A DNA stretch of 64,000 nucleotides, taken from Candidatus Limnocylindrales bacterium (GTDB taxonomy: Bacteria; Moduliflexota; Moduliflexia; Moduliflexales; JAUQPW01). A program made the position numbers and the translations under genes. Where the stretch lies: contig DATMBG010000039.1 of the NCBI GenBank assembly GCA_035559535.1, positions 1 through 64,000 on the forward strand. Direction: 5' to 3'. Positions within the stretch are counted from its first letter, which is position 1. The number at the start of each line of letters is the position of its first letter. Positions 2,905 through 64,000 of the stretch are shown one piece after another. The notes below the pieces were generated by a model, which did no database searches, was not told the DNA's origin, and saw only the letters and a program-made list of their open reading frames with translations.

Positions 2905-5823
2905 TTAGAGAATTTTCCTTAAAAACTGCCCGGTGTAGGATTTTTCAACCTTGGCTACCTCTTCTGGGGTTCCCGTGGCTATTACATATCCCCCTTCATC
3001 TCCCCCTTCCGGGCCAAGGTCGATAATATAGTCGGCACTTTTGATCACTTCCAGGTTGTGTTCGATAATTACTATGGTATTGCCGGCATCGGCCAGGCGA
3101 TTGAGGACTCCCAGTAACTTCTTGATATCCTCAAAATGAAGACCCGTCGTAGGTTCGTCTAGAATATAAAGGGTACGGCCGGTATCCTGTCGGCTTAATT
3201 CCTTGGCAAGTTTGATACGCTGGGCTTCTCCCCCTGAGAGGGTGGTGGCCGGTTGCCCTAAGTGAATATAGTCCAATCCCACATCGTAGAGGGTCTGTAA
3301 TTTTTTTCGAATTCCCGGGATATTCTCCAGAAAATCCAGGGCTTCGGCAACGGTCATATCCAGCACGTCGGCAATGGTCTTTCCTTTGTATTTGATCTCC
3401 AAAGTCTCCCGATTGTATCGCTGACCTTTACAAACCTCACAGGTTACATAGACATCGGGAAGGAAATGCATTTCGATTTTGATAACCCCATCTCCCTGAC
3501 AGGCTTCGCATCGGCCTCCCTTGACGTTAAAACTAAACCGTCCCGGTTTATATCCCCGCATACGGGCCTCGGGAACTTGGGCGAAGAGTTCCCGAATCAG
3601 GCTGAAAGCTCCTGTGTAGGTCGCCGGATTCGATCGCGGCGTTCGGCCGATCGGACTCTGATCAATATCGATCACTTTGTTGATATACTCCCATCCTAAG
3701 ATTTTGTCGTGTTCTCCTCCTCGTTCCTTGGTCCGGTAAAACCGATGGGCCAATTCTTTATACAAAATCTCTGTGATGAGGGTACTTTTCCCGGACCCAG
3801 AAACCCCGGTGATGCACGTTATAACCCCCAACGGAATTTCCACCGTTATATTTTTAAGATTATGCTCTCGAGCTCCGACGATGGTCAACCATTGTCCCTG
3901 AGGGGGGGTCTGCAGTTCAGGGTCCAGGGTCGGTTGCCCTTCCCTTCCTGCCTTCCGTCTTTTGCCTTTTATCTTTCCCTCGGGCTCTTGTCCATTACCC
4001 GTTCTGACCGGGCGCCTGGTTTTAGGAATGGGAATGGATAACTCTCCCTTGAGGTAACGACCCGTCAGAGAATTGGGATTGGCCATGATGTCTGCCGGGG
4101 TTCCGCAGGCTACCACATAGCCCCCCTGTTTACCCGCTCCGGGTCCAAGATCTATGACATAGTCCGCAGCCAGGATGGTTTCTTCGTCGTGTTCTACCAC
4201 CAGGACCGTATTCCCTAATTCCTTTAAATCTTTTAAGGTTTCCAAAAGCTTTTGGTTATCTCGCTGGTGTAGTCCAATGCTCGGTTCGTCCAGGATATAG
4301 AGGACACCGACCAGGCCGGAGCCGATTTGAGTTGCCAGGCGAATGCGTTGACCCTCTCCCCCGGACAGGGTGGCCGACGGTCGATCCAGGGTCAGGTAGG
4401 CCAGGCCTACTTTCATAAGAAATCCCAATCGATTTCGAATTTCCTTCAGGATGGGCTCCGCAATTTTCATTTGCTGGGGCGTGAAGGATAATCTGGAAAG
4501 GGTATCCCATGCTTCTTTGATGGAAAGTCGGGTAAAGTCTGAAATAGCCATTCCGTTGATCTTGATGGAAAGGCTCTCTTTTTTTAGTCGGTTCCCTCCA
4601 CAGGTAGTACACAGGCGCGTACTCATGTAGACTTCGATGCTTTCCCGAGAATAATCCGATGAAGTTTCTTTGTAGCGCCGCATCATCTCCCCGATGATTC
4701 CTTCGTATTTCGCCCGGTAAGAATACTTACGATGATCGCTCTGGTAGGTAAACAGAATTTCTTCCTCTCCGGAGCCGTAGAGGATCACTTGCTGAACCTG
4801 CTCGGGAAGATCCTGAAAAGGGGTGTCCAGGCTGAAATGGTAATGATGGGCCAGGGCGTCTAGCATTTGATACAAATAGGTCGAGCTGCTTCCTTCCCAT
4901 GGGGCAATGGCTCCTTGCCGAAGGGATTTTGTTTTATCCGGTATCAGTAAATCCGGATCCAGTTCCATCTTGATCCCAAGACCATCGCAGTCCGGGCAGG
5001 CTCCATAGGGACTGTTAAAGGAAAACATACGGGGAGCCATCTCCGGATAACTGATTCCGCAGTCAATACAGGCCAGTTTTTCGCTAAAGAGCAGATCCTG
5101 ACCTCCCAAGACGTTAACCAAGACAATTCCATCGGCCAGCTTCAAGGCCGTTTCCAGGGAATCTGCGGTCCGTTGTGCGATTCCTTCTCGGATAACCAGG
5201 CGATCTACCACTACCTCGATGTCATGCTTCTTGTTTTTGTCCAGCTCTATCTTCTCTTCCAGTTCTCGAATGGTCCCGTCTACCCGAACCCGAATATATC
5301 CTTCCTTTCGAAGAGTTTCAAAAATTTGACGATATTCTCCTTTTCGACCTCGAACTATAGGAGCCAGGATTTGGACCTTGGTTCCGGAAGGTAATTCCAG
5401 AATGCGATCTACCATCTGTTGAACCGTCTGGGAAGTAATCTCTCGCCCACATTGCCAGCAGTGAGGGGTACCTACTCTGGAAAAAAGCAGACGGAGATAA
5501 TCGTAAATCTCTGTGGTGGTGGCAACGGTTGATCGAGGATTTTTGCTGACCGTCTTCTGCTCGATGGAGATGGCCGGGGATAATCCTTCGATGGATTCTA
5601 CTTCAGGTTTTTCCATCTGTTCCAGGAATTGCCTGGCATAGGAGGAAAGGGACTCTACATACCGTCGTTGCCCTTCGGCATAGAGGGTATCGAAGGCTAA
5701 AGAAGATTTCCCGGAGCCGCTTAGCCCTGTAATGACCACCAACTTGTCCCGAGGTATCGTGAGGTCAATGTTTTTGAGATTATGCTCCCTGGCTCCTCGG
5801 ATGATAATTTCCGTTGAAGACAT
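2905..5823 (-). CDS. uvrA: Excinuclease ABC subunit A
   Basis: GAREHNLKN, two Walker A motifs ([18 protein letters not shown]), LSGGE signatures and CxxC zinc modules. Confidence 0.98.
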
Positions 5824-54908: not shown

Positions 54909-57900
54909 ATGCACTGTGAAAGTTGTGGATTTGAAAATCCCCCCACGATGAATTTCTGTGGAGAGTGCGGCACAAAGCTGAGACTTTCGTGTCCCCAGTG
55001 CGGCGCTGAGAATCCCCCAGGGTTCAAATTCTGTGGCCAGTGTGGGGCAGGTCTGGCAATAGGGGCAACCCGCCAGGTCGCCCCTACAACCGATACAGGT
55101 CAGGTCCCTCTGCACCCAGAACCCCAGATCCAGCGTTACACCCCGAAACACCTGGCTGAGAAGATCCTCCAGTCCAGGTCTGCCCTGGAAGGAGAACGTA
55201 AGCAGATCACCATCCTCTTCGCCGACATCAAAGGCTCCATGGAACTGCTGGCGGGACTCGATCCCGAAGAGGCTCGAAGGCTTCTGGACCCGGTCCTACA
55301 CGCCATGATGGAGGCAGTTCACCGGTACGAGGGAACGGTGAACCAGGTTCTGGGGGATGGGATCATGGCCCTGTTTGGGGCTCCCCTCGCCCATGAGGAT
55401 CATGCAGTCCGGGCCTGCTATGCAGCTCTGACTATGCAAGAAGCCATCCGCCGCTATACCGAAGAAGTCCGTTACCAGCACGGGATCGAGGTGCAGATCC
55501 GGGTGGGTCTCAACAGCGGTGAAGTGGTGGTGCGGACCATCGGCAACGACCTCCACATGGACTACTCGGCCATCGGTCAAACGACCCATCTGGCAGCCCG
55601 CATGGAGCAACTGGCCACTCCTGGAACGATCCGGCTGACGATGAATACCCTTCGGCTGGCCGAGGATTTTATTCAAGTCAAATCCCTGGGTCTGGTTCTT
55701 GTCAAGGGACTCCAGGACCCTGTAGAGGTGTTCGAGCTGGTGGGTGCAGGTCCTGTCCGAAGACGTCTGCAAGCGTCTTTAGCTCGGGGTTTCACCCGCT
55801 TCGTGGGACGACAGCAGGAGCTGGAGACCCTCCGACAGGCTCTGGAGCAGGCAGGTAGAGGTCAAGGTCAGGTGGTGGCTTTGGTGGGAGAACCCGGTAT
55901 CGGCAAGTCCCGCCTGTTCTATGAGTTTACCCGTTCCCATCGAACCAAAGGCTGGCTGTGGTTGGAAAGCAGCTCGGTCTCCTATGGGAAAGCCACGGCT
56001 TACCTGCCGGTGATTGACCTCCTGAAGGCTTATTTTCAGATTGAGGACCGGGACGATGTCCGAAGGATCCGAGAGAAAGTTATGGGTAAGATCCTGGCCC
56101 TGGATGAAGCGTTGAGACCGACCTTACCAGCCTTGCTGTCGCTGCTGGGAGTGCCGATGGAGGATACCTCCTGGAAGCAACTGGATCCTCCCCAACGTCG
56201 TCAGCGGACCTTAGAGGCTATCAAACGCCTTCTTTTGAGGGAAAGCCAGATACAGCCTCTGTTGCTGGTCTTTGAGGATCTGCACTGGATCGATACCGAG
56301 ACCCAAGCCTTCCTGGATAGCTTGATAGAGGGCCTGCCGACGGCTCGGATTTTGTTGTTGGTCAACTATCGTCCCGAGTATCAGCATGGTTGGGGGAGCA
56401 AGACCTATTGTACCCAACTCCGCCTGGATCCCTTACCTTCTGAGAGCGTCGAAGAACTTCTCCAGGCTCTACTGGGAAACGATGCCAGTCTGCAACCCCT
56501 CCGACCATCCTTGATGGAGCGGACCGAGGGGAACCCCTTCTTCCTGGAGGAGAGTATTCGAACGTTGGTAGAGACCCAGGCTTTGGTGGGGGAGAGAGGG
56601 GCCTATCGGCTGGTGAAGGCGCTTCCAACCCTTCAGATGCCGGGGACCGTCCAGGCGATGCTGGCCGCCCGGATTGATCGGTTACCCCCTGAGGAGAAGC
56701 ATCTCCTCCAGTGTGCGGCTGTGATTGGCAAGGATGTAGAATTCTGGCTTCTTCAAGCCATTGCGGAGCTACCGGAGGAAGCGCTGCGTCGGGGTCTCCT
56801 GCACCTCCAAACCGCCGAGTTCCTCTACGAGACCAGTCTCTTCCCGGATCTGGAATACACGTTCAAGCATGCCTTGACCCACGAAGTGGCCTATGGAAGT
56901 TTGCTGCAAGAACGACGGCGGATACTTCATAACCAGATCTTGAGGGCCCTGGAAACGCGGTCATCCGATCGGCTGGATGAGAACGTGGAACGACTGGCGT
57001 ATCATGCACAACGGGGCGAGGTTTGGGATAAAGCCTTGATCTACTTCCGTCAGGCGGGGTCCAAAGCGGCTGCCCGCTCAGCCAACCGGGAGGCAGTATC
57101 CTGCTTCGAGCAGGCATTGGTTGCTCTCCAGCATCTGCCAGAGAGTCGTGACATGCTCGAACAAGCCATCGACCTCCGGTTCGACCTTCGGAACGCGCTT
57201 TTTCCACTTGGAAAATATGAACAGATTCTCAACTTCCTTCGCGAGGCGGAAACTCTTGCTAAAACTTTGGATGATCAGAGAAGGTTGGGTTGGGTCTCTA
57301 GCTACATGACCCACTATTTTTGGTGGAGGGGTAAGCTGGATCAAGCTGCCGAATCCGGCCAACGCGCCCTCGCAATTGCTACAACCTTTCAGGATTTTGG
57401 ACTCCAGGTTGCAACGAACCTCTTCCTGGGGCAAGTCTACTATAACTTAGGTAACTATCCCCAGGCGATGGAATTTCTCAGGAAGAATGTGGAGTCCCTC
57501 CAAGGAGATCTGATCTATGAGCGCTTTAACGTGGCTACCCTGCCTTTTGTTGTCTCCCGTCACTGGCTAATCCGCTGCCTTGCTGAGGTTGGAGAGTTCA
57601 CCGAAGGAAGGATTCGGGCCGAAGAAGCCTTTCAGGTTGCTGAAGCAGCCAATGATTCATTGGGTCTTTTCGCCGCATATTACGGGACCGGTTTTCTTTA
57701 CCTCCACAAAGGAGAGTTTCAAAAGGCTATTTCTCTATTTGAACGGGGCCTTGCGTTCAGCCAGACCTGGAATATCTCGTTCTTCTTACATTACATCAAT
57801 TCGGCCCTGGGCTATACGTATGTACTTTCTGGACGTGTTGCGGAAGCGATTCCTCTTCTAGAGCGGGCTGTGGAGCAGATGGTTTCTATGAAAACAATGG

Positions 57901-58307
57901 GTGGCTTGTCGCTCCTGGTTGGCTGGCTGAGTGAATCCTATCTATTGGTAGGCCGAAGAAGCCTTGCCCTGGAGCTTGCCCTGCACGCCCTTGACCTCTC
58001 TCGTAACCACAAAGAACGTGGACATGAGGCCTGGGCTCTCCGACTCCTGGGTGAGATCCACGCCCATCAGGCTCCTCCCCATGTCGAAGAAGCTGAAGAT
58101 TATTATCGTCAGGCTTTTGGGCTGGCTGAGGAGCTGGGGATGCGTCCGCTCGTGGCTCATGTTCACTTTGGCCTTGGGAGTCTCCATCACAAGGTAGGAA
58201 GATCGGAGGAAGCACGAGCTGAACTGTCCCAGACTATCGAGTTGTTCCGTTCTATGGAGATGACATTCTGGTTGAACCGGGCCGAGGCTATATTTGTGGG
58301 AAGTTAG
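54909..58307 (+). CDS. Double zinc ribbon - class III nucleotide cyclase - STAND/AAA ATPase - TPR protein
   Basis: Four CxxC motifs, LFADIKGS, GDGIMALFG, HLAARME, GEPGIGKS, FEDLHW, GNPFFLEE, YTFKHALT, TPR-like helices. Confidence 0.9.
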   Translation: MHCESCGFENPPTMNFCGECGTKLRLSCPQCGAENPPGFKFCGQCGAGLAIGATRQVAPTTDTGQVPLHPEPQIQRYTPKHLAEKILQSRSALEGERKQITILFADIKGSMELLAGLDPEEARRLLDPVLHAMMEAVHRYEGTVNQVLGDGIMALFGAPLAHEDHAVRACYAALTMQEAIRRYTEEVRYQHGIEVQIRVGLNSGEVVVRTIGNDLHMDYSAIGQTTHLAARMEQLATPGTIRLTMNTLRLAEDFIQVKSLGLVLVKGLQDPVEVFELVGAGPVRRRLQASLARGFTRFVGRQQELETLRQALEQAGRGQGQVVALVGEPGIGKSRLFYEFTRSHRTKGWLWLESSSVSYGKATAYLPVIDLLKAYFQIEDRDDVRRIREKVMGKILALDEALRPTLPALLSLLGVPMEDTSWKQLDPPQRRQRTLEAIKRLLLRESQIQPLLLVFEDLHWIDTETQAFLDSLIEGLPTARILLLVNYRPEYQHGWGSKTYCTQLRLDPLPSESVEELLQALLGNDASLQPLRPSLMERTEGNPFFLEESIRTLVETQALVGERGAYRLVKALPTLQMPGTVQAMLAARIDRLPPEEKHLLQCAAVIGKDVEFWLLQAIAELPEEALRRGLLHLQTAEFLYETSLFPDLEYTFKHALTHEVAYGSLLQERRRILHNQILRALETRSSDRLDENVERLAYHAQRGEVWDKALIYFRQAGSKAAARSANREAVSCFEQALVALQHLPESRDMLEQAIDLRFDLRNALFPLGKYEQILNFLREAETLAKTLDDQRRLGWVSSYMTHYFWWRGKLDQAAESGQRALAIATTFQDFGLQVATNLFLGQVYYNLGNYPQAMEFLRKNVESLQGDLIYERFNVATLPFVVSRHWLIRCLAEVGEFTEGRIRAEEAFQVAEAANDSLGLFAAYYGTGFLYLHKGEFQKAISLFERGLAFSQTWNISFFLHYINSALGYTYVLSGRVAEAIPLLERAVEQMVSMKTMGGLSLLVGWLSESYLLVGRRSLALELALHALDLSRNHKERGHEAWALRLLGEIHAHQAPPHVEEAEDYYRQAFGLAEELGMRPLVAHVHFGLGSLHHKVGRSEEARAELSQTIELFRSMEMTFWLNRAEAIFVGS
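55060..55087. repeat. GTAG-family REP inserted in-frame in the cyclase gene linker
   Basis: Minus strand GTAGGGGCGACCTGGCGGGTTGCCCCTA; translated as IGATRQVAPT. Confidence 0.8.
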
Positions 58308-58318
58308 TTCTTAACTTC

Positions 58319-59206
58319 ATGGGAAAGCAACTTACTTTTATGGACCGACTCTACAGTCTGATAGACAGGCTTTTCGATAAGTTAGAAAAAATCTGGGAAA
58401 GCATCTATACCCAGCGGATAGTCACCGATTTACTGGTTCTTGCCTTTGTAATTGGATTAATCGTTATTGAACTGAATCGAAAGGGAGTACTTCCAGAAAC
58501 TCTCAGCGAGTGGGTCCCCCGCAACCATTTCTACGCAGTAGGTTTGGCCTTTACCTTACTTCTGTTCCTGGAAGCCATTGGGTTGGTCTTTGCACTTGCT
58601 CATTCCGTGGCTGACTCTCTGGGTAAGCAATTTCAGGTGCTCTCTTTGATTCTTTTACGTAAACCTTTCAAAGAGTTTATATACTTCGACGAACCTATCA
58701 CCTGGACCCAGGTCTCCAGTCCTGTACTTCATATTCTTGCCGATGCGAGCGGTGCATTACTTATCTTTGTTGCCCTGGGGTTCTACTATCATGTGCAACA
58801 GCATCGTCCCATCACCAAGGATACCCTGGAGCAGTTTAGATTTACGGCAGCTAAGAAGTTAGTGTCTCTACTCTTATTAACCCTTTTTGTAATGATTGGA
58901 GTAAATCATCTTCGGAGTTACCTGGTTCAAGGATCTATCAACAGTTTTTTCGATACCTTTTATACTCTCCTTATCTTTAGTGACGTATTGATTGTATTGA
59001 TTTCGCTACGGTATAGTTCGACCTATAAGGTCGTCTTTCGCAATTCCGGTTTTGCTTTAGTTACGGTGGTGATTCGGCTGGCCTTAACCGCTCCGCCTTA
59101 TATTGATGTAGGCCTTGGGCTATGTGCAGCCATTTTGGCCTTGGGATTTACGCTGGCATATAATGCCTTTGAGCCTGTGGTACGGGAACGCATTGAAAAA
59201 GACTAA
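58319..59206 (+). CDS. Conserved-looking multi-pass membrane protein of unknown function
   Basis: About 7 hydrophobic segments; GKQFQ..SLI..R..FK and FRNSGF motifs. Confidence 0.7.
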   Translation: MGKQLTFMDRLYSLIDRLFDKLEKIWESIYTQRIVTDLLVLAFVIGLIVIELNRKGVLPETLSEWVPRNHFYAVGLAFTLLLFLEAIGLVFALAHSVADSLGKQFQVLSLILLRKPFKEFIYFDEPITWTQVSSPVLHILADASGALLIFVALGFYYHVQQHRPITKDTLEQFRFTAAKKLVSLLLLTLFVMIGVNHLRSYLVQGSINSFFDTFYTLLIFSDVLIVLISLRYSSTYKVVFRNSGFALVTVVIRLALTAPPYIDVGLGLCAAILALGFTLAYNAFEPVVRERIEKD

Positions 59207-59297
59207 AGAACTTTGTCAGGTAGGATAAAAAGGGAGGGGAATCCTTGGGATCAAGGATTTTTAATTCTTTTCAAAATCAAACGGGACGTTTAACCTA

Positions 59298-59681
59298 CTA
59301 ATCGGAGTTTCCCTCTGAAAGCCATCTAAGAATTCTAAAGTGCAAGGCCGCACTATTAAGATCTTCCATTTCACAAAATACTTTCATAAACTCGCGGCCT
59401 TCTATAAGGTAGCACAGATCCTTAAAAAATAACGCAATAATAACCCCTTTACAGGTTTCTGGATCGATGGATTTATTTTTTAAGTATCGGACCAGAGTCG
59501 GATAGATTTTATCACGCAAATACTCCCAGGATTTATCCACGGGCAAAACAACTTCATAAAAAAGAACTTTATCCCCGGACTCTTCCTGGGTTTTAGATAA
59601 TTCTTCCAAAGTTTGGTTGTAAGCGATACCCGGTATGATTTTAAAGGCTTTTGAGAATAAAAGCTCACGAAAATCGGCCAC
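59298..59681 (-). CDS. Hypothetical protein, last gene of the putative hibernation operon
   Basis: 127-aa ORF with GTG start after GAGGAGG, 33 nt downstream of the aeRF1-fold gene. Confidence 0.7.
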   Translation of the reverse strand: MADFRELLFSKAFKIIPGIAYNQTLEELSKTQEESGDKVLFYEVVLPVDKSWEYLRDKIYPTLVRYLKNKSIDPETCKGVIIALFFKDLCYLIEGREFMKVFCEMEDLNSAALHFRILRWLSEGNSD

Positions 59682-59714
59682 AGTTGGAACCTCCTCAAGT
59701 AAGATTTCTCCTCG

Positions 59715-60893
59715 TCAAGCCGGTGGTAAAGCTCGAAGGGAAGCCGGCATTTTAAAGCGGAGTAAAGCTCCGATCCTTCCCAGTTGTTTTAAAATAGGAT
59801 TATTTGGGATATGTTCCACTTCTCCCCGTTGGCGGTAGACTTCTTCAATAGCTTCATCTACCACATCGGGGACCTCTTCAAGGGGTCCTTGACAAATCGG
59901 GCAGGATTTTTCTTCCACCGTGGTTAAAAGTCCACAATTCCGGCACTCTAAGCCGGGAGCCGAAAAATCTTCCTCTACCAACAGGGTATGGATATTTCCT
60001 ACATAAAGGGCTTTTAAGGTATCGTGTAACCCGGAGACCCCAAAGCCTCCCGTAGCCACTTCTTCCATAAGTCGGGTTACCAGTTGCACTTCCTGCTTCT
60101 GTTCCACATCTCTTTCGATCTGAAGGATTTGAGTCTTAATTTCCTGGATGGGGGTTTCCACATCCAGATCCAGCCGGGCGACCAATCTTTTTATGAGGAA
60201 GCTATGTAAACATCTTTCAAATTCCGGGAGGATATCGCTTCGTCCTCCAATAACAAGATAGTCGAAGCGCTTCTCTTTGAAGAAATCAAAGACCCGATCG
60301 GCAACCTGTTTAAGATGCCGATAAACATGGTATTCAATATGACGCTCGATGCGTTTTTCTTCCAGACCGTACCACCCGGCTATCCGAACTTTTCCCGGAA
60401 CCTCCTCATCAAAGACTTTAAAATGCTCTAGAATTTCGCCTAAATACACCTCAAAGATTCTGGCTTTATCGCGACTGACCAGGACTAAACAATAGCGATG
60501 ATATTCATCCAGGAGAACGGTTAGAGGGCGTATGTAGGGATCATTTCCAACCACGAGAACATTCTTAACAGGTCGGGGAAGCCGATATACTTGCCAGAAA
60601 TCCTTTCCACTACAGGAGAAAATAGCCAGACCTCTGGTATTATTTCGTTTAAACTCTTCTCCTACAAAACGCTCGATTTTTTCAAAATCTTCTTCCAGGG
60701 ATTTCATGACCCCATGGGGTAGGTGTTCTGCTTCCAGCTCCAGCCGCCGTTCTTTAATTAAATTTTTAGTGATTGTTTCATAATCCCGGGGGGTATATTT
60801 ACTTCCATCTACATTCAGATAAAAGCTACAGGTCTTATAGGTTTCTCCCTTAAAATTTAAAAGTTTCTCTATATCTGCCGAAGAAATCATCAA
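59715..60893 (-). CDS. Bacterial aeRF1/Pelota-fold protein (baeRF-like; release-factor or hibernation-factor homologue) with zinc ribbon
   Basis: SFYLNVD, GLAIFSC, PYIRPL, LV.RDKARIF, LVIGG, G...TL.AL..G.I.TLLV, CRNC..CPIC, IGALLRF C-terminus. Confidence 0.85.
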   Translation of the reverse strand: MMISSADIEKLLNFKGETYKTCSFYLNVDGSKYTPRDYETITKNLIKERRLELEAEHLPHGVMKSLEEDFEKIERFVGEEFKRNNTRGLAIFSCSGKDFWQVYRLPRPVKNVLVVGNDPYIRPLTVLLDEYHRYCLVLVSRDKARIFEVYLGEILEHFKVFDEEVPGKVRIAGWYGLEEKRIERHIEYHVYRHLKQVADRVFDFFKEKRFDYLVIGGRSDILPEFERCLHSFLIKRLVARLDLDVETPIQEIKTQILQIERDVEQKQEVQLVTRLMEEVATGGFGVSGLHDTLKALYVGNIHTLLVEEDFSAPGLECRNCGLLTTVEEKSCPICQGPLEEVPDVVDEAIEEVYRQRGEVEHIPNNPILKQLGRIGALLRFKMPASLRALPPA

Positions 60894-60954
60894 CTTCTCC
60901 TTACCTCCTTGTTGGTATCCTGGGATAGTCCGTTAAAGAAATCAGATTTCTTTG

Positions 60955-61191
60955 TTATTCTCGATTTTCTAAAGCTTGCTGAATCAATTTTTCCACCCGC
61001 TCTGAATAACCTTCCGGAAGGTCTACTTCTTCTAAAGTTGTAAAGAACTCTTCCGCCAGATTTAAAAGGGTCAGACGCTCTTCACAATTTGGGCACTCTT
61101 TAATATGTTCGGCAATATCTTGAAGCAGGTCGGGGTGGAGTCCCTTATCCATATATTCTGAGAGGTAATTTATCACCAACTGACATTCCAT
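60955..61191 (-). CDS. Soluble zf-HC2 (ZAS) anti-sigma factor
   Basis: MEC......LSEYMD.....HIKECPNC (HxxxCxxC); no TM segment. Confidence 0.88.
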   Translation of the reverse strand: MECQLVINYLSEYMDKGLHPDLLQDIAEHIKECPNCEERLTLLNLAEEFFTTLEEVDLPEGYSERVEKLIQQALENRE

Positions 61192-61236
61192 AAACTTCCT
61201 TCACCTCCGTATCGGATTCTTCTAAGAAAAGAAGCC

Positions 61237-62250
61237 TTACACGAGTTCTGTTTCTTCCAACTTTGCTTGTAAGAATTCCCGTGCAGATTGAATTTCTTTT
61301 CGTACCTCATCAACGGATTTTCTCCTCACCCAGGCCACTTCTTCCAGGCTGAAGCCTTCCACGCTGTAAAGTATAAAAGATTCCCGCCAGCCTTTGGGGA
61401 GTTGACTCAAGGTTTGATGAATATATTTTTGAATTTCTTGACGGGTTACGATCTCTTCAGGAGTCGGCATCTTATCATCCGGTACGAGATCTTCCAGTTT
61501 TAGAGTTTCATCCGGTTGCCAGAAATCCAGTATTTCACTTCCCAGGGTAGAGACGGCCTCTGTAGGCTCCGGTTCTGGAATTTCGGTTTCAACAGGAACT
61601 CTGGCCTCTCGCTCTGCTTTAATTTTCTCAACTTCCCGTTCCAAAATATCCAGGGCAATCCGATATAACCAGCGATCCAGGGGAAAGGAATCCGGCTTCT
61701 GATCAAAGTTTCTTACTGCAAACAGAACAGTCTCATCTACTACGTCGGTAATCGTCAGATCATAGGGTTCTATATCTTCTATGAGTTGATGGTAGATGAT
61801 CTCCCTTCGGACAAAATTATAGAGTTTCTTAAGTTGAGGAAGGATCAGGTCGGTAAGTGCCTTAGCTTCATAGGTCTTTTCATAAGGAGCCATTCCCGAA
61901 ACAAGTTCTTGAACTTGGAATTTAGCCCGCTTTCGCTTATAGGCATCTTCCATTCGGAGCTTACTTTTAACATCTTCCAGTTGCTTGAGGAGCTCTCCAC
62001 AGACTTCTTTCAAAACATGCCGAAGGTTCTTACCTTGCTCCTCGGCATGGAGTTGTCGTTTGGGAAGGGAAAGGGTGAAAAGAGCTGCATACTCCTCTTT
62101 TCTTGGGTGTTTCTCCAGGGTTACATGTAGAAATACTTGATCTTCCGGGAACTTTAAGGTTCGCCGTTCTATTCTTTTAATCTGTCTTTCCAGATAGTTC
62201 TTAATCGAAAACGCCGGCTCCAGATTCTTGTAGAAAACTTCGTGTCGCAA
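61237..62250 (-). CDS. HPF/RaiA (S30AE) domain fused to ECF-like sigma-70 regions 2 and 4
   Basis: N-terminal ~100 aa HPF-like; DVVDET.L.A......LDRWLYRIAL (sigma2); LSQLP..WRESFIL..VEGFSLEEVA......V...I..ARE.L (sigma4). Probable TTG start at 62250 after GGAGGTGA; the ORF track starts at GTG 62268. Confidence 0.8.
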   Translation of the reverse strand: MRHEVFYKNLEPAFSIKNYLERQIKRIERRTLKFPEDQVFLHVTLEKHPRKEEYAALFTLSLPKRQLHAEEQGKNLRHVLKEVCGELLKQLEDVKSKLRMEDAYKRKRAKFQVQELVSGMAPYEKTYEAKALTDLILPQLKKLYNFVRREIIYHQLIEDIEPYDLTITDVVDETVLFAVRNFDQKPDSFPLDRWLYRIALDILEREVEKIKAEREARVPVETEIPEPEPTEAVSTLGSEILDFWQPDETLKLEDLVPDDKMPTPEEIVTRQEIQKYIHQTLSQLPKGWRESFILYSVEGFSLEEVAWVRRKSVDEVRKEIQSAREFLQAKLEETELV

Positions 62251-62556
62251 CAGACTCACCTCCGACACTCAATCCAACAGGATGAGAAGGGGATACTGGA
62301 TTTGGAGGGAAACTGCCTTCCTTTCAGGGTTTTTTTCTTGACTTTGGGTTGTATTTGTGGGCTCTGGTCTTCAACCTGTTTGGGTCAGGTTAAAGGATCC
62401 AGAGCGCACGGGGTAGGGGTTTTCAGAAGGTTGATTCGGAAAAGCTACCTTCTCTCCCCTTTCTTAACATGGGCCAGGAAATTTACCCGTTGAATCGGAT
62501 TCGGATCAACTGTTATTGGATATCCTATACCTTTGTAGTGCCTTTACAGGCTTCCT

Positions 62557-64000
62557 TTAGTCAAAATCCGGGGGTGGGGTAGGCATCTTAGACTTTTCCT
62601 TCTTCTCAGGAACCTCGGTAATCAGGGCTTCGGTAGTCAGCATAAGGGCTGCGACACTCGCGGCATTTTGGAGAGCAACCCGGGCTACTTTGGTTGGATC
62701 AATAATTCCTGCCGCAACCAGGTCTTCAAACTCCTCGGTAGCCGCATTGAAGCCTTCATTGGTTTTCATCTCTTTGACCCTCTCAACCACCACCGAGCCT
62801 TCCCATCCGGCATTATTGGCAATCTGGCGTAAAGGCTCCTCAAGGGCCCGCTTTACAATATTCACACCAACTTGCTGATCCCCTTCTAATTTCAATTTTT
62901 CAAGGGCCGGTAGACATCTTAGATAAGCCACTCCTCCACCTGGAACGATTCCTTCTTCAGCAGCGGCCTTTGTGGCGTGCATAGCGTCTTCCACCCGGGC
63001 TTTCTTTTCCTTCATCTCCGTTTCGGTTGCTGCCCCTACTTTTATGACTGCAACCCCACCGGCTAATTTAGCCAACCGTTCCTGAAGCTTCTCCCGATCA
63101 TAATCCGAGGTGGTCTCTTCAATCTGCATCTTGATCTGTTTAATTCGACCCTGGATTTTATCTCTGGATCCGGCTCCCTCTACAATGGTTGTATTTTCTT
63201 TATCAATGACTACTTTCTTGGCCTTTCCCAGATCGTTCAGGGTTACATTCTCAAGCTTGATTCCCAATTCCTCGGCAATGAGCTGACCTCCGGTCAGAAT
63301 GGCAATATCTTCTAACATGGCTTTTCGCCTATCACCGAAGGCCGGGGCTTTAACCGCCGCACATTTTAAAGTTCCTCTTAGTTTATTGACGACCAGGGTG
63401 GCCAGGGCTTCTCCTTCGACATCTTCTGCGATAACAAGCAAGGGTTTACCCGATCTGGCAACCTGCTCAAGCAGGGATAACATGTCTTTGGTCGAGGAGA
63501 TTTTCTTCTCATGGATCAAGATATAAGGCTCCTCTAAAACAGCCTCCATCCGTTCAGGATCCGTCACAAAATAAGGGGACAAATAACCCCGGTCAAACTG
63601 CATTCCTTCTACGAATTCCAGGGTGGTCTCCATGGATTTGGCTTCTTCTACCGTGATAACTCCGTCTTTTCCAACCTTATCCATGGCTTCGGCAATGATC
63701 TTACCGATGGAAGTATCACCATTAGCCGAAATAGCGCCTACCTGTTCAATTTCTTTCTTTCCGGCCACCGGTTTGCTCAGTTTTTTCAGCTCTTCGACTA
63801 CAACTTCCACCGCCTTCTCGATCCCTCGTTTTAAATCCATGGGGTTCGCTCCGGCGGCAATATTCCGACATCCTTCTCTGAATATGGCCTGGGCCAAAAT
63901 GGTTGCTGTGGTTGTTCCATCTCCAGCCACATCACTGGTTTTACTGGCCACTTCTTTGACCAACTGGGCTCCCATGTTCTCATAGGGCTCCTCCAGTTCG
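62557..64000 (-). CDS. groL: Chaperonin GroEL (5' part beyond the window edge)
   Basis: [44 protein letters not shown]; the frame stays open to the window end ([12 protein letters not shown]). Confidence 0.97.

What the first reader, a model, noticed from the sequence alone, without database searches (positions are those of the whole stretch)
59298..62556. Candidate stress/dormancy operon: HPF-ECF sigma fusion + zinc anti-sigma + aeRF1-fold protein + unknown ORF, directly downstream of groEL
Seen: four co-oriented genes with short gaps (45, 61 and 33 nt), each with a strong SD. The first joins an HPF/RaiA-like domain to sigma2/sigma4 ECF-like regions, the second is a ZAS anti-sigma and the third is an aeRF1-fold protein. 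Established: HPF/RaiA silences ribosomes, ZAS proteins sequester ECF sigma factors and often sense redox or zinc, and some bacterial aeRF1 homologues (Balon/Rv2629-type) are hibernation factors. Inference: a module linking ribosome hibernation status to a transcriptional response. The sigma could be held on idle ribosomes, or the anti-sigma could gate hibernation activity, with a dedicated chaperonin alongside. I know of no functional characterisation of this combination.
Basis: partly seen in the sequence, partly recalled or inferred. Interest (0 to 1): 0.9.

Follow-up and report, generated by a model that had tools for sequence, protein, structure and literature searches.

The report
Hibernation-factor/sigma fusion operon with anti-sigma
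Four real genes behind groESL encode a ribosome-silencing domain fused to a stress sigma factor, its zinc anti-sigma partner, a Balon-type ribosome-plugging protein and a small unknown protein; the fusion and its pairing with Balon were already noted in print, but the anti-sigma partner is a new detail and no one has tested how it works.

Summary
On the minus strand, downstream of groES-groEL, lie four genes.

- An HPF(S30AE)::ECF-sigma fusion (337 aa from TTG 62250).
- A 78-aa soluble zinc anti-sigma (ZAS).
- A baeRF family-10 protein whose model matches mycobacterial Balon (TM 0.84/0.87).
- A STAUR_1299-family protein.

- The fusion is a large family: 1204 representative hits and 409 genomic loci.
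- In 58 of the 80 loci I examined, a baeRF-10 gene follows it directly.
- A ZAS follows in only 6 of 80, all close relatives of the window's fusion.
- STAUR_1299 and groEL each follow in only 1 of 80.
- The predicted sigma-module/ZAS complex passes (0.84, best control 0.00), but this is a textbook pair type.

None of this is categorically new. Burroughs & Aravind 2019 linked baeRF to HPF. The 2024 Balon paper lists chaperones, alternative sigma factors and RaiA in Balon operons. A 2025 preprint names "SigE-HPF" chimeras next to Balon. This scan has also met the fusion several times on other DNA.

New here are three things: the ZAS-gated variant, a relative in which the fusion gene is deleted, and the finding that tLST/LHR orf11 of enterobacterial plasmids is a divergent family member. 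Function remains untested.

The parts
62557..64000 (-). groEL (3' 1.4 kb lies in the window; the gene and its groES continue beyond it). Context gene, one of two groEL copies in the genome.
   Evidence: second copy 87% identical on C12; 540-aa GroEL and 95-aa GroES in L086
62251..62556 (-). Spacer between groEL and the fusion (288 nt to the GTG, 306 nt to the TTG start). It is strongly structured. No minus-strand sigma70-type promoter or intrinsic terminator was found by the scan.
   Evidence: no minus-strand site in the spacer; MFE -94 kcal/mol, z -3.3, 0 of 100 shuffles as stable; no Rfam family above chance
62362..62404 (-). Long imperfect hairpin in the spacer. Its 7-nt loop (62379-62385) is inverted in the 94%-identical relative L005.
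   Evidence: coordinates read
61237..62250 (-). HPF::ECF-sigma fusion gene, 337 aa from TTG 62250 (the longest ORF starts at GTG 62268).
61957..62250 (-). HPF/RaiA-type domain (aa 1-98; beta-alpha-beta-beta-beta-alpha; net charge +6).
   Evidence: TMt 0.81-0.87 to solved HPFs; long HPF 8uu4, E 1.2e-15
61603..61878 (-). Sigma region 2 domain (aa 125-216).
   Evidence: contacted by the ZAS in the predicted complex
61462..61602 (-). Long acidic sigma2-sigma4 linker (aa 217-263; net charge -10, family median -10) carrying the conserved F-x-QPDE motif. It is alignable to the AlgU/RpoE linker but about 25 aa longer.
61252..61461 (-). Sigma region 4 domain (aa 264-333).
60955..61191 (-). Soluble zinc anti-sigma factor (ZAS), 78 aa, with C3...H29-x3-C33-x2-C36.
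   Evidence: best NCBIfam match is RsrA, below cut-off; C, H, C, C invariant in 7 of 7
59715..60893 (-). Balon-type baeRF family-10 protein (391 aa from ATG 60890). It lacks GGQ, and the family's conserved Gln is Glu here.
59892..59945 (-). Four-Cys zinc ribbon inserted in the C-terminal (eRF1_3) domain of the baeRF protein.
   Evidence: the four Cys are invariant
59298..59681 (-). STAUR_1299-family protein, 127 aa, function unknown. Probably a lineage-specific passenger.
59237..59262 (.). Hairpin between the convergent genes, followed by T-runs on both strands. Likely bidirectional terminator closing the operon.
   Evidence: listed for the + strand; minus-strand reading

Best explanation
This is a stress operon that encodes two ribosome-hibernation proteins together with a sigma/anti-sigma switch.

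Shown by computation:
- Gene 1 joins a complete, basic HPF/RaiA domain to an RpoE/AlgU-like ECF sigma module through a basic linker. The sigma module stands where long HPF carries its dimerisation domain.
- Gene 2 is an RsrA-like soluble ZAS, predicted to clamp sigma2 and sigma4.
- Gene 3 has the fold of ribosome-bound Balon (Msmeg1130) and lacks a GGQ motif.

Inferred mechanism:
- Under stress, the Balon-like protein plugs the A site while the HPF domain fills the 30S decoding channel, as Balon and RaiA do together on Psychrobacter ribosomes.
- This leaves the sigma module hanging outside the ribosome.
- The sigma module is held inactive by the ZAS until thiol oxidation or zinc loss releases it.
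- The sigma activity therefore depends on two signals: redox state and ribosome occupancy.

The fourth gene and groESL are neighbours specific to this lineage. groESL may supply read-through transcription.
For: Domains and folds.

Family size: 1204 representative hits at E<=0.001. Of the 150 listed, 113 align from before query residue 50.

Gene linkage:
- baeRF-10 lies directly downstream, on the same strand, in 58 of the 80 loci examined (409 found), often with a gap under 45 nt or a 4-nt overlap.
- A ZAS with the full C/H/C/C motif follows in 6 of 80, which are 6 of the 8 loci most similar to the window.

Complex of sigma module with ZAS:
- ipSAE 0.84, best of 3 controls 0.00. The mark was reached by 58 of 80 solved complexes and 2 of 110 mismatched pairs.
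- The runs share at least 90% of their contacts, and the partner's pLDDT is at least 87.
- Contacts fall on sigma2 (128-180) and sigma4 (270-332).

Other support:
- The sigma2-sigma4 linker is homologous to that of AlgU/RpoE and is among the best-conserved parts of the protein.
- The genome keeps a canonical rpoN-long HPF-ptsN operon and also has two HPF-CSD chimeras. This matches the preprint's picture of accessory chimeric HPFs (section 10 read).
- A redox theme recurs. In L007 a thioredoxin and PsiE lie between fusion and baeRF, and the plasmid homologue orf11 sits beside trx-GI.
- Published structures show Balon and RaiA together on one ribosome (PMC10901736, passages read; PDB 8rd8 appears).
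Against: - No experiment exists for any close member.
- Pfam Sigma70_r2 matches only 5 of 104 family members, and that set was chosen for full-length alignment. The region-4 recognition helix varies across the family.
- In 51 of 79 related upstream regions the promoter looks like a housekeeping extended -10 (TGTAnAAT), not an autoregulated ECF promoter. I found no ECF-type promoter in the window.
- Deleting the divergent homologue orf11 from the E. coli tLST did not lower heat or chlorine resistance (PMC8407380, section 9 and abstract passages read). It is therefore not an essential activator of that island.
- The fusion occurs without an adjacent baeRF in 22 of 80 loci. Two of five such genomes show no baeRF-10 at all, though their completeness is unknown.
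- Relative L099 has lost the fusion and the 5' part of the ZAS but keeps groESL-baeRF-STAUR. The Balon-like gene therefore does not need the fusion.
- The complex pass may reflect memory of solved ECF sigma/ZAS complexes such as SigW-RsiW (5wuq, seen).
- The model's pTM of 0.57 gives no confident placement of the HPF domain relative to the sigma module.
Confidence: 0.55

Rival explanations
1. The sigma-like tail is no longer a transcription factor. It replaces the dimerisation domain of long HPF as a protein-interaction module, for example for ribosome pairing or for docking partners. The ZAS would then gate hibernation activity rather than transcription.
For: - The preprint reads these chimeras as HPFs whose lost C-terminal domain was replaced (section 10 read).
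- Sigma70_r2 matches 5 of 104 members, while PhyR_sigma-like, the model of a sigma-derived decoy domain, matches 54 of 104.
- Housekeeping-type promoters lie upstream in 51 of 79 relatives.
- Delta-orf11 gave no heat or chlorine phenotype (PMC8407380, passages read).
- The ZAS is absent from 74 of 80 loci.
Against: - The whole ECF model passes its cut-off.
- The profile matches AlgU and SigE from region 2.2 to 4.2 at E about 1e-20.
- The RpoE-type linker, which in solved holoenzymes lies inside RNAP (recalled), is conserved.
- A classical anti-sigma gene and a passing predicted complex argue that the surfaces a real sigma uses are intact.
- The PhyR_sigma-like model covers only region 4, so those matches may simply reflect region 4.
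Confidence: 0.3
2. The protein is simply an ECF sigma factor. Its HPF-like N-terminal extension is an in-cis regulatory domain that no longer binds ribosomes. The neighbouring Balon-like gene is merely part of its regulon.
For: - N-terminal extensions that regulate ECFs are known (PMC7826278, passages read).
- The fusion stands without baeRF in 22 of 80 loci.
- The window's S30AE score is modest (32 bits).
Against: - The complete HPF fold is kept at pLDDT around 95.
- The domain remains basic across the family (median +5).
- 90 of 104 members pass S30AE at E<=0.001 (the set was selected for full length).
- The tight and repeated pairing is with a ribosomal A-site factor (58 of 80).
Confidence: 0.1
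3. The four genes are neighbours by chance or by recent insertion behind groESL, with no functional link.
For: - STAUR_1299 and groEL are linked to the fusion only in this genus-level lineage (1 of 80; 1 of 52).
- The full-length fusion is found in only 2 of the 9 species genomes of the phylum, which suggests lateral acquisition.
Against: - Fusion and baeRF adjacency recurs in 58 of 80 loci assigned to several phyla by their record titles.
- The fusion-ZAS pair recurs in 6 loci and gives a passing complex.
- The gaps are short and a single terminator closes the cluster.
Confidence: 0.04

Closest known systems
Chimeric 'SigE-HPF' isoforms of HPF (bioRxiv 10.1101/2025.11.04.686544, section 10 read)
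   Same: Both have an HPF N-terminal domain fused to a SigE-like sigma module in place of the dimerisation domain. Both coexist with a canonical long HPF, often lie next to Balon, and spread laterally, including on plasmids.
   Different: The preprint's main text does not mention an anti-sigma partner: 'sigma' occurs 3 times. Here a ZAS gene is inserted between the fusion and the Balon-like gene. No member has been tested biochemically. The preprint's figures and supplements were not seen.
Balon with RaiA on hibernating ribosomes (Helena-Bueno et al. 2024, PMC10901736; PDB 8rd8, 8v9j/8v9l, 8v9k)
   Same: The third gene's model superposes on Msmeg1130 over its whole length (TM 0.84/0.87, rmsd 3.0 A). 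It has no GGQ or NIKS string. An HPF-type gene sits in the same operon. The paper's Fig. 2c legend lists chaperones, alternative sigma70 factors and RaiA in Balon operons.
   Different: It scores far below the NCBIfam cut-offs of the three characterised Balon families: 78.9 vs 330, 65 vs 480 and 42.1 vs 320. It belongs to baeRF family 10, and it carries an intact four-Cys zinc ribbon where Balon has a beta-hairpin (this correspondence is inferred from PMC6514570, passage read).
baeRF-1 families with HPF gene neighbourhoods (Burroughs & Aravind 2019, PMC6514570, passages read)
   Same: The gene neighbourhood is the same, and they make the same prediction of an A-site blocker working with HPF.
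   Different: They single out family 10 as keeping a conserved Gln and as possibly catalytic. In the window's protein that position is Glu and the GG pair is absent, whereas 45 of 59 aligned sequences have Gln.
SigR-RsrA and other ECF sigma/ZAS pairs (e.g. SigW-RsiW, 5wuq)
   Same: A small cytoplasmic ZAS has the same C-x25-H-x3-C-x2-C spacing as I recall for RsrA. It is encoded directly after its sigma gene and is predicted to be sandwiched between sigma2 and sigma4.
   Different: The sigma carries an N-terminal ribosome-binding domain. The RsrA model scores only 25.8 bits against a cut-off of 62.5. Redox sensitivity is untested.
[quoted passage not shown]
   Same: It is a full-length homologue of the family profile: hhalign probability 99.9%, E 1.7e-32, 339 aligned columns. 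It lies between hdeD-GI and trx-GI on E. coli AW1.7 pAW1.7_2.
   Different: It is so divergent that Pfam finds no domain. There is no Balon-like or ZAS gene beside it. Its deletion had no effect on heat or chlorine resistance (PMC8407380, passages read). The tLST reviews call it a protein under 30% identical to anything of known function (PMC8290217, passages read).

Membership tests
HPF/RaiA (Ribosomal_S30AE, PF02482) | Profile match above the curated cut-off | tested here: met
   32.1 bits against 23.7. The family profile matches long HPF 8uu4 at E 1.2e-15.
HPF/RaiA (Ribosomal_S30AE, PF02482) | beta-alpha-beta-beta-beta-alpha fold | tested here: met
   AF2 pLDDT is about 95 over aa 1-98. Foldseek gives TMt 0.81-0.87 and rmsd 2.1-2.5 A to solved HPFs.
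HPF/RaiA (Ribosomal_S30AE, PF02482) | Binding in the 30S decoding channel | not testable with these tools
   The only proxy is a basic domain: +6 in the window, family median +5.
Long HPF | C-terminal dimerisation domain (Ribosom_S30AE_C) | tested here: not met
   It is absent from the fusion. It is present in the genome's canonical HPF at L001.
ECF (group IV) sigma-70 factors | Match to the ECF superfamily model spanning regions 2 and 4, with no region 3 | tested here: met
   TIGR02937 scores 50.7 against 42.9 over aa 137-337. AlgU 6in7 matches at E 1.9e-20. The model shows two helical domains joined by a linker.
ECF (group IV) sigma-70 factors | Pfam Sigma70_r2 match | tested here: not met
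   No match for the window's protein; 5 of 104 family members match. Region 2 is divergent, although the DVVDE and WLYRIA elements can be read in the sequence.
ECF (group IV) sigma-70 factors | Adjacent cognate anti-sigma factor | tested here: met
   A ZAS gene lies 45 nt downstream. The predicted complex scores 0.84, best control 0.00. This holds in only 6 of 80 related loci.
ECF (group IV) sigma-70 factors | RNAP core binding and promoter-specific initiation | not testable with these tools
   No autoregulatory ECF promoter was found. Relatives carry housekeeping-type extended -10 promoters in 51 of 79 upstream regions.
Zinc anti-sigma factors (ZAS, zf-HC2) | H-x3-C-x2-C motif plus an upstream Cys or His ligand | tested here: met
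   PF13490 scores 28.3 against 22.2. C3, H29, C33 and C36 are invariant in 7 of 7 aligned sequences.
RsrA (TIGR03988 equivalog) | Score above the equivalog cut-off | tested here: not met
   25.8 bits against 62.5. It is RsrA-like in size and motif spacing only.
Balon-type hibernation factors | Three-domain aeRF1-like fold closest to solved Balon structures | tested here: met
   The model has pLDDT 86.5 and pTM 0.74. The best Foldseek hits are 8v9l/8v9j at TM 0.81-0.87, with aRF1 at about 0.5. The profile matches 8v9j at E 4.5e-17 over its full length.
Balon-type hibernation factors | Absence of the GGQ and NIKS motifs | tested here: met
   Neither string occurs in the 392-aa translation. The loop reads VRIAGWYGLEEKRIERH.
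Balon-type hibernation factors | Membership of a characterised Balon equivalog (AOC03_06830, MSMEG_1130, Rv2629) | tested here: not met
   78.9 vs 330, 65 vs 480 and 42.1 vs 320 bits.
Balon-type hibernation factors | A-site binding with EF-Tu(GDP) | not testable with these tools
   A zinc ribbon replaces the beta-hairpin that contacts EF-Tu in Balon. This is inferred from passages of PMC6514570 and PMC10901736.
baeRF family 10 (PF18854) | Profile match, and the conserved Gln in the catalytic loop | tested here: inconclusive
   The profile match is met at 100.3 vs 27.1 bits. At the Gln column, 45 of 59 sequences have Gln and the window has Glu.
STAUR_1299 family (NF041086) | Profile match above the cut-off | tested here: met
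   124.6 bits against 50. The function is unknown. No PDB relative at E<0.1, and the Atlas gave only leads under 0.9.

The most novel reading that the evidence does not exclude
The fusion is a true sigma factor parked on hibernating ribosomes. The HPF domain tethers an RNAP-competent ECF sigma to idle 30S subunits, and in this ZAS-bearing subclade a redox-sensitive anti-sigma locks it independently. A stress or wake-up regulon would then fire only when the ribosomes let go and the thiol switch opens. The ribosome pool itself would act as an anti-sigma factor.
Probability: 0.2. Interest if true: 0.85.

Novelty: new variant of a known kind. Interest (0 to 1): 0.5.

Why it matters
If the sigma module is active, this protein would tie the number of idle ribosomes directly to promoter choice, a form of translation-to-transcription signalling that has not been demonstrated. 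The ZAS-bearing variant is the most tractable entry point. It offers a defined binary complex and a testable redox trigger, and it is the strongest comparative argument so far that the tail still behaves like a sigma factor.

The link to tLST orf11 means that a family member already sits in well-studied laboratory constructs of a heat and chlorine tolerance island, where knock-outs exist. There its annotation could be changed from 'unknown' to 'HPF-sigma chimera'.

If instead the tail is only a structural replacement for the HPF dimerisation domain, the locus is one more example of the published Balon-plus-HPF theme.

Tried and rejected
- **Expression evidence.** The look-up of sequencing runs listed no RNA holder.
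- **Rfam.** Nothing above chance in 59000-62700.
- **CIRCE operator.** None upstream of groES within 3 mismatches.
- **ECF-type autoregulatory promoter.** None recognised in the window's spacer or in the ZAS-type relatives by reading. Power is too low, since the closest relatives are nearly identical.
- **STAUR_1299 as a module member.**
  - Absent from 4 genomes that carry the fusion.
  - Not found in the 201 genomes sampled from the phylum of G009. The control genomes also gave nothing, so that search says little.
  - Present in 2 of 9 genomes of the window's phylum.
  - Of 52 metagenome loci, only L099 has baeRF, ZAS or groEL nearby, and many of those loci are short.
  - The Atlas and PDB sequence search gave no usable lead.
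- **ZAS homologues.** The word-indexed protein search found only 2, so the ZAS alignment came from loci.
- **Genes downstream in loci without baeRF.** They are unrelated to one another: aminotransferase, asparaginase, histidine kinase, GGDEF-EAL, CopCD, subtilase.
- **Earlier notes of this scan.** None for this place.
- **HPF domain docking on the sigma module in cis.** The model's pTM of 0.57 gives no confident answer, and I could not inspect the coordinates.
- **One call with a wrong parameter** was corrected through.

Full report
**What is in the window**

One search lists four minus-strand ORFs between a truncated groEL (62557 to the window end) and a convergent plus-strand gene: 61237-62268, 60955-61191, 59715-60893 and 59298-59681. 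The gaps are 45, 61 and 33 nt. Reading, each start is preceded by a GGAGG-type ribosome-binding site.

For the first gene the site lies before the TTG at 62250, and every relative begins there (MR/KHxV...). The protein is therefore 337 aa, not 343. The only terminator-like hairpin near the 3' end is at 59237-59262, between the convergent genes. Read on the minus strand, it is also followed by a T-run.

Between groEL and the first gene the scan found neither a minus-strand terminator nor a sigma70-type promoter. That spacer folds unusually well: z -3.3, with 0 of 100 shuffles as stable. It matches no Rfam family.

**Domain identities**

- **Gene 1.** It passes Pfam Ribosomal_S30AE (32.1 vs 23.7 bits, aa 13-105) and Sigma70_r4_2. 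It also passes the NCBIfam ECF superfamily model over aa 137-337 (50.7 vs 42.9).
  - A 104-row family alignment gave an AF2 model with pLDDT 86.1. It shows a beta-alpha-beta-beta-beta-alpha domain (1-98), a low-confidence basic linker, a helical sigma2 domain (125-216), a 47-residue linker and sigma4 (264-333).
  - Foldseek placed the N-domain on solved HPFs at TMt 0.81-0.87 and the rest on ECF sigma factors.
  - The family profile hits AlgU (6in7) at E 1.9e-20 and long HPF (8uu4) at E 1.2e-15.
- **Gene 2.** It is a 78-aa zf-HC2 protein with C3, H29, C33 and C36, and no membrane segment is apparent.
- **Gene 3.** It passes baeRF_family10 and eRF1_3.
  - Its model (pLDDT 86.5, pTM 0.74) superposes best on the Balon homologue Msmeg1130 bound to ribosomes: TM 0.84/0.87, rmsd 3.0 A. 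Psychrobacter Balon follows at 0.67-0.75 and aRF1 at about 0.5.
  - It scores far below the three NCBIfam Balon equivalog cut-offs, so it is a Balon-like protein of a different family.
  - Most relatives read GRSDGYAGYDGGHAQRR in the catalytic-loop region. The window reads VRIAGWYGLEEKRIERH, with no GG pair and Glu where 45 of 59 sequences have Gln. It is therefore unlikely to hydrolyse peptidyl-tRNA.
  - A four-Cys zinc ribbon in the C-domain is invariant.
- **Gene 4.** It matches only the NCBIfam STAUR_1299 family.

**How general is the arrangement?**

The fusion is not rare.
- An exhaustive HMMER search of cluster representatives gave 1204 hits at E<=0.001. Of the 150 listed, 113 align from before query residue 50.
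- A scan of species-representative genomes found 409 relatives, and I examined the best 80. By their record titles most are Acidobacteriota, with some Nitrospirae, Gammaproteobacteria, Myxococcales, Desulfobacteraceae and one Verrucomicrobiia.
- These 80 are kin of one another, so the counts below are not independent events.

Iterated searches over all ORFs of those 80 loci found:

| Feature | Loci of 80 |
|---|---|
| HPF domain | 80 |
| baeRF-10 gene downstream on the same strand | 58 |
| Small C/H/C/C ZAS directly after the fusion | 6 |
| STAUR_1299 | 1 |
| groEL | 1 |

- The baeRF-10 gene usually follows within 45 nt or overlaps by 4 nt.
- The six ZAS loci are L005, L006, L008, L009, L010 and L012. 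They are 6 of the 8 loci most similar to the window.
- STAUR_1299 and groEL each occur only in L005, the 94%-identical relative.
- Among the six ZAS loci, a baeRF gene follows in two (L005, L008). The others continue with CopC-CopD, a subtilase or unassigned ORFs.
- In L007 a thioredoxin and PsiE lie between fusion and baeRF.
- The 22 loci without baeRF have unrelated neighbours.
- Of five such genomes, two carry a baeRF-10 elsewhere and two show none.
- Within the window's own small phylum, the full-length fusion occurs in 2 of 9 species genomes, both of one genus. That fits lateral acquisition.

**A natural deletion**

Looking from the fourth gene outward, 52 metagenome loci encode STAUR_1299 relatives. 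Only one, L099, has baeRF, ZAS or groEL nearby.

L099 reads groES-groEL, then 221 nt, then baeRF and STAUR_1299. The 221 nt translate to the C-terminal two-thirds of the ZAS (...DCPACK...LLNLAEEFFTTLEEV...LIQQALE). They lack its start, its N-terminal Cys and its His. The fusion gene and the 5' part of the ZAS have therefore been lost there while the Balon-like gene stayed.

This shows three things. The four-gene order behind groESL is ancestral to this small lineage. The Balon-like gene does not depend on the fusion. And the fusion/ZAS pair behaves as one unit.

**The sigma/anti-sigma pair**

- The score was 0.84 and the best of 3 controls 0.00.
- The mark was reached by 58 of 80 solved complexes and 2 of 110 mismatched pairs.
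- The three runs share at least 90% of their contacts, and the partner's pLDDT is at least 87.
- The ZAS touches sigma2 (128-180) and sigma4 (270-332), the classical clamped arrangement.
- Like complexes are solved (for example SigW-RsiW, 5wuq). The pass therefore shows likeness and may come from memory.
- My own alignments were used, so the calibration holds only roughly.

Even so, a dedicated anti-sigma gene and an intact predicted interface are the best comparative evidence that the tail still has the surfaces of a working sigma factor.

The sigma2-sigma4 linker is alignable to that of AlgU/RpoE but about 25 residues longer. It is strongly acidic (-10; family median -10) and carries much of the invariant sequence (F-x-QPDE).

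**Evidence that cuts the other way**

- Pfam Sigma70_r2 matches only 5 of 104 members, while PhyR_sigma-like matches 54. I chose that set for full-length alignment, so its shares are not unbiased.
- The recognition helix of region 4 varies between members.
- In 51 of 79 upstream regions, all of the acidobacterial type, there is a conserved GGG-TGTA(C/G/A)AAT extended -10 with a -35-like TTGnnn. A conserved 5'-UTR hairpin follows, just before the ribosome-binding site. That is a housekeeping-type promoter, not ECF autoregulation.
- The only genetic datum for any family member comes from the plasmid homologue described next.

**A link to the enterobacterial stress island**

tblastn found full-length homologues on 285 plasmid records: Klebsiella 114, Enterobacter 74, Acinetobacter 31, Escherichia 17 and others.

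On E. coli AW1.7 plasmid pAW1.7_2, the hit is the 381-aa 'hypothetical protein' between hdeD-GI and trx-GI in the locus of heat resistance. By gene order (PMC8290217, passage read) this is orf11 of the tLST.
- Pfam sees nothing in it.
- The family profile aligns to it over 339 columns at 99.9% probability, E 1.7e-32.
- It also reports that 7 of 13 single deletions reduced heat or chlorine resistance, and orf11 is not among them (PMC8407380, abstract and section 9 passages).
- A search for 'locus of stress tolerance' plus 'hibernation' found one unrelated paper.

**What is already known**

- Burroughs and Aravind (PMC6514570, passages) described operonic linkage of baeRF-1 families with HPF. 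They proposed A-site blockers working with HPF.
- The Balon paper (PMC10901736, passages and the Fig. 2c legend) showed Balon and RaiA together on ribosomes. It lists chaperones, alternative sigma70 factors and RaiA in Balon operons.
- The preprint 10.1101/2025.11.04.686544 (section 10 read in full) names HPF chimeras with Csp, SigE or CBS domains. It says they coexist with canonical HPF and are often next to Balon.
- The window's genome fits that picture exactly. It has a canonical rpoN-long HPF-PTS EIIA operon, two HPF-CSD chimeras and this HPF-sigma chimera.
- Earlier notes of this scan record the same fusion or gene pair on other DNA at least seven times.
- A search for 'anti-sigma' + 'ribosome hibernation' + 'ECF' returned 5 papers. 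None concerns such a partner, judging by title and start of abstract.
- The main text of the ECF reclassification paper contains no word beginning 'ribosom' or 'hibernation'.

**Verdict**

Genes 1 to 3 form a credible functional unit, and gene 4 and groESL are lineage-specific neighbours.

The most likely reading, at about 0.55, has three parts.
- A Balon-type factor and an HPF domain silence ribosomes together.
- A ZAS-gated ECF sigma module is carried on the HPF.
- The physical link between ribosome state and transcription is still only inferred.

The main rival, at about 0.3, is that the tail is a non-transcriptional replacement for the HPF dimerisation domain.

The case is a new variant (ZAS-bearing, downstream of groESL) of a recently described kind. 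It is interesting mainly because it offers a clean biochemical handle on the one question that remains open: what the sigma tail does.

Noticed in passing
window 62379-62385 within hairpin 62362-62404; L005 upstream region: The 7-nt loop of a long hairpin in the groEL-fusion spacer reads ACCCAAA in the window and TTTGGGT in the 94%-identical relative, with the stems unchanged. This is a small inversion across the hairpin.
   Followed up: partly
L022-L083, about 55-76 nt upstream of the fusion start: A conserved GGG-TGTA(C/G/A)AAT extended -10 promoter occurs in 51 of 79 upstream regions. It is followed by a 5'-UTR stem-loop that changes sequence between subgroups yet keeps its pairing, ending just before a CCGAGG ribosome-binding site. 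This may be a translational control element.
   Followed up: partly
L007, 138 nt upstream of the fusion start: A near-consensus sigma-54 -24/-12 element (TGGCAT-N5-TTGCT) lies upstream of the fusion in a Blastocatellia MAG. It is the only one among the 79 upstream regions scanned.
   Followed up: no
L090 8941-10086 (E. coli AW1.7 plasmid pAW1.7_2): [quoted passage not shown] Homologues lie on 285 plasmid records.
   Followed up: partly
L099 3539-3759: A relative carries groES-groEL, a ZAS pseudogene remnant, baeRF and STAUR_1299. The fusion gene and the 5' part of the ZAS are deleted.
   Followed up: yes
own genome: L001, L002, L003: The genome also has a canonical rpoN-long HPF-PTS EIIA operon and two HPF::cold-shock-domain chimeras. 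That makes four S30AE proteins in all.
   Followed up: yes
window 54909-58307 (+): A 1132-aa protein combines a double zinc ribbon, an adenylate/guanylate cyclase domain, an AAA_16 ATPase and TPR/MalT-like repeats. It lies upstream of an unassigned 295-aa membrane protein (58319-59206) that converges on the operon.
   Followed up: no
L006 7138-9736: In a Nitrospirae MAG the fusion-ZAS pair is followed by CopC and CopD copper-resistance genes instead of a baeRF gene. This hints that the sigma/ZAS pair can serve a metal or redox regulon.
   Followed up: no
L086 about 3640-3680 (upstream of groES, outside the window): A TTGATA-N17-TATAAT sigma70-type promoter lies upstream of groES, and no CIRCE operator is present within 3 mismatches.
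   Followed up: partly
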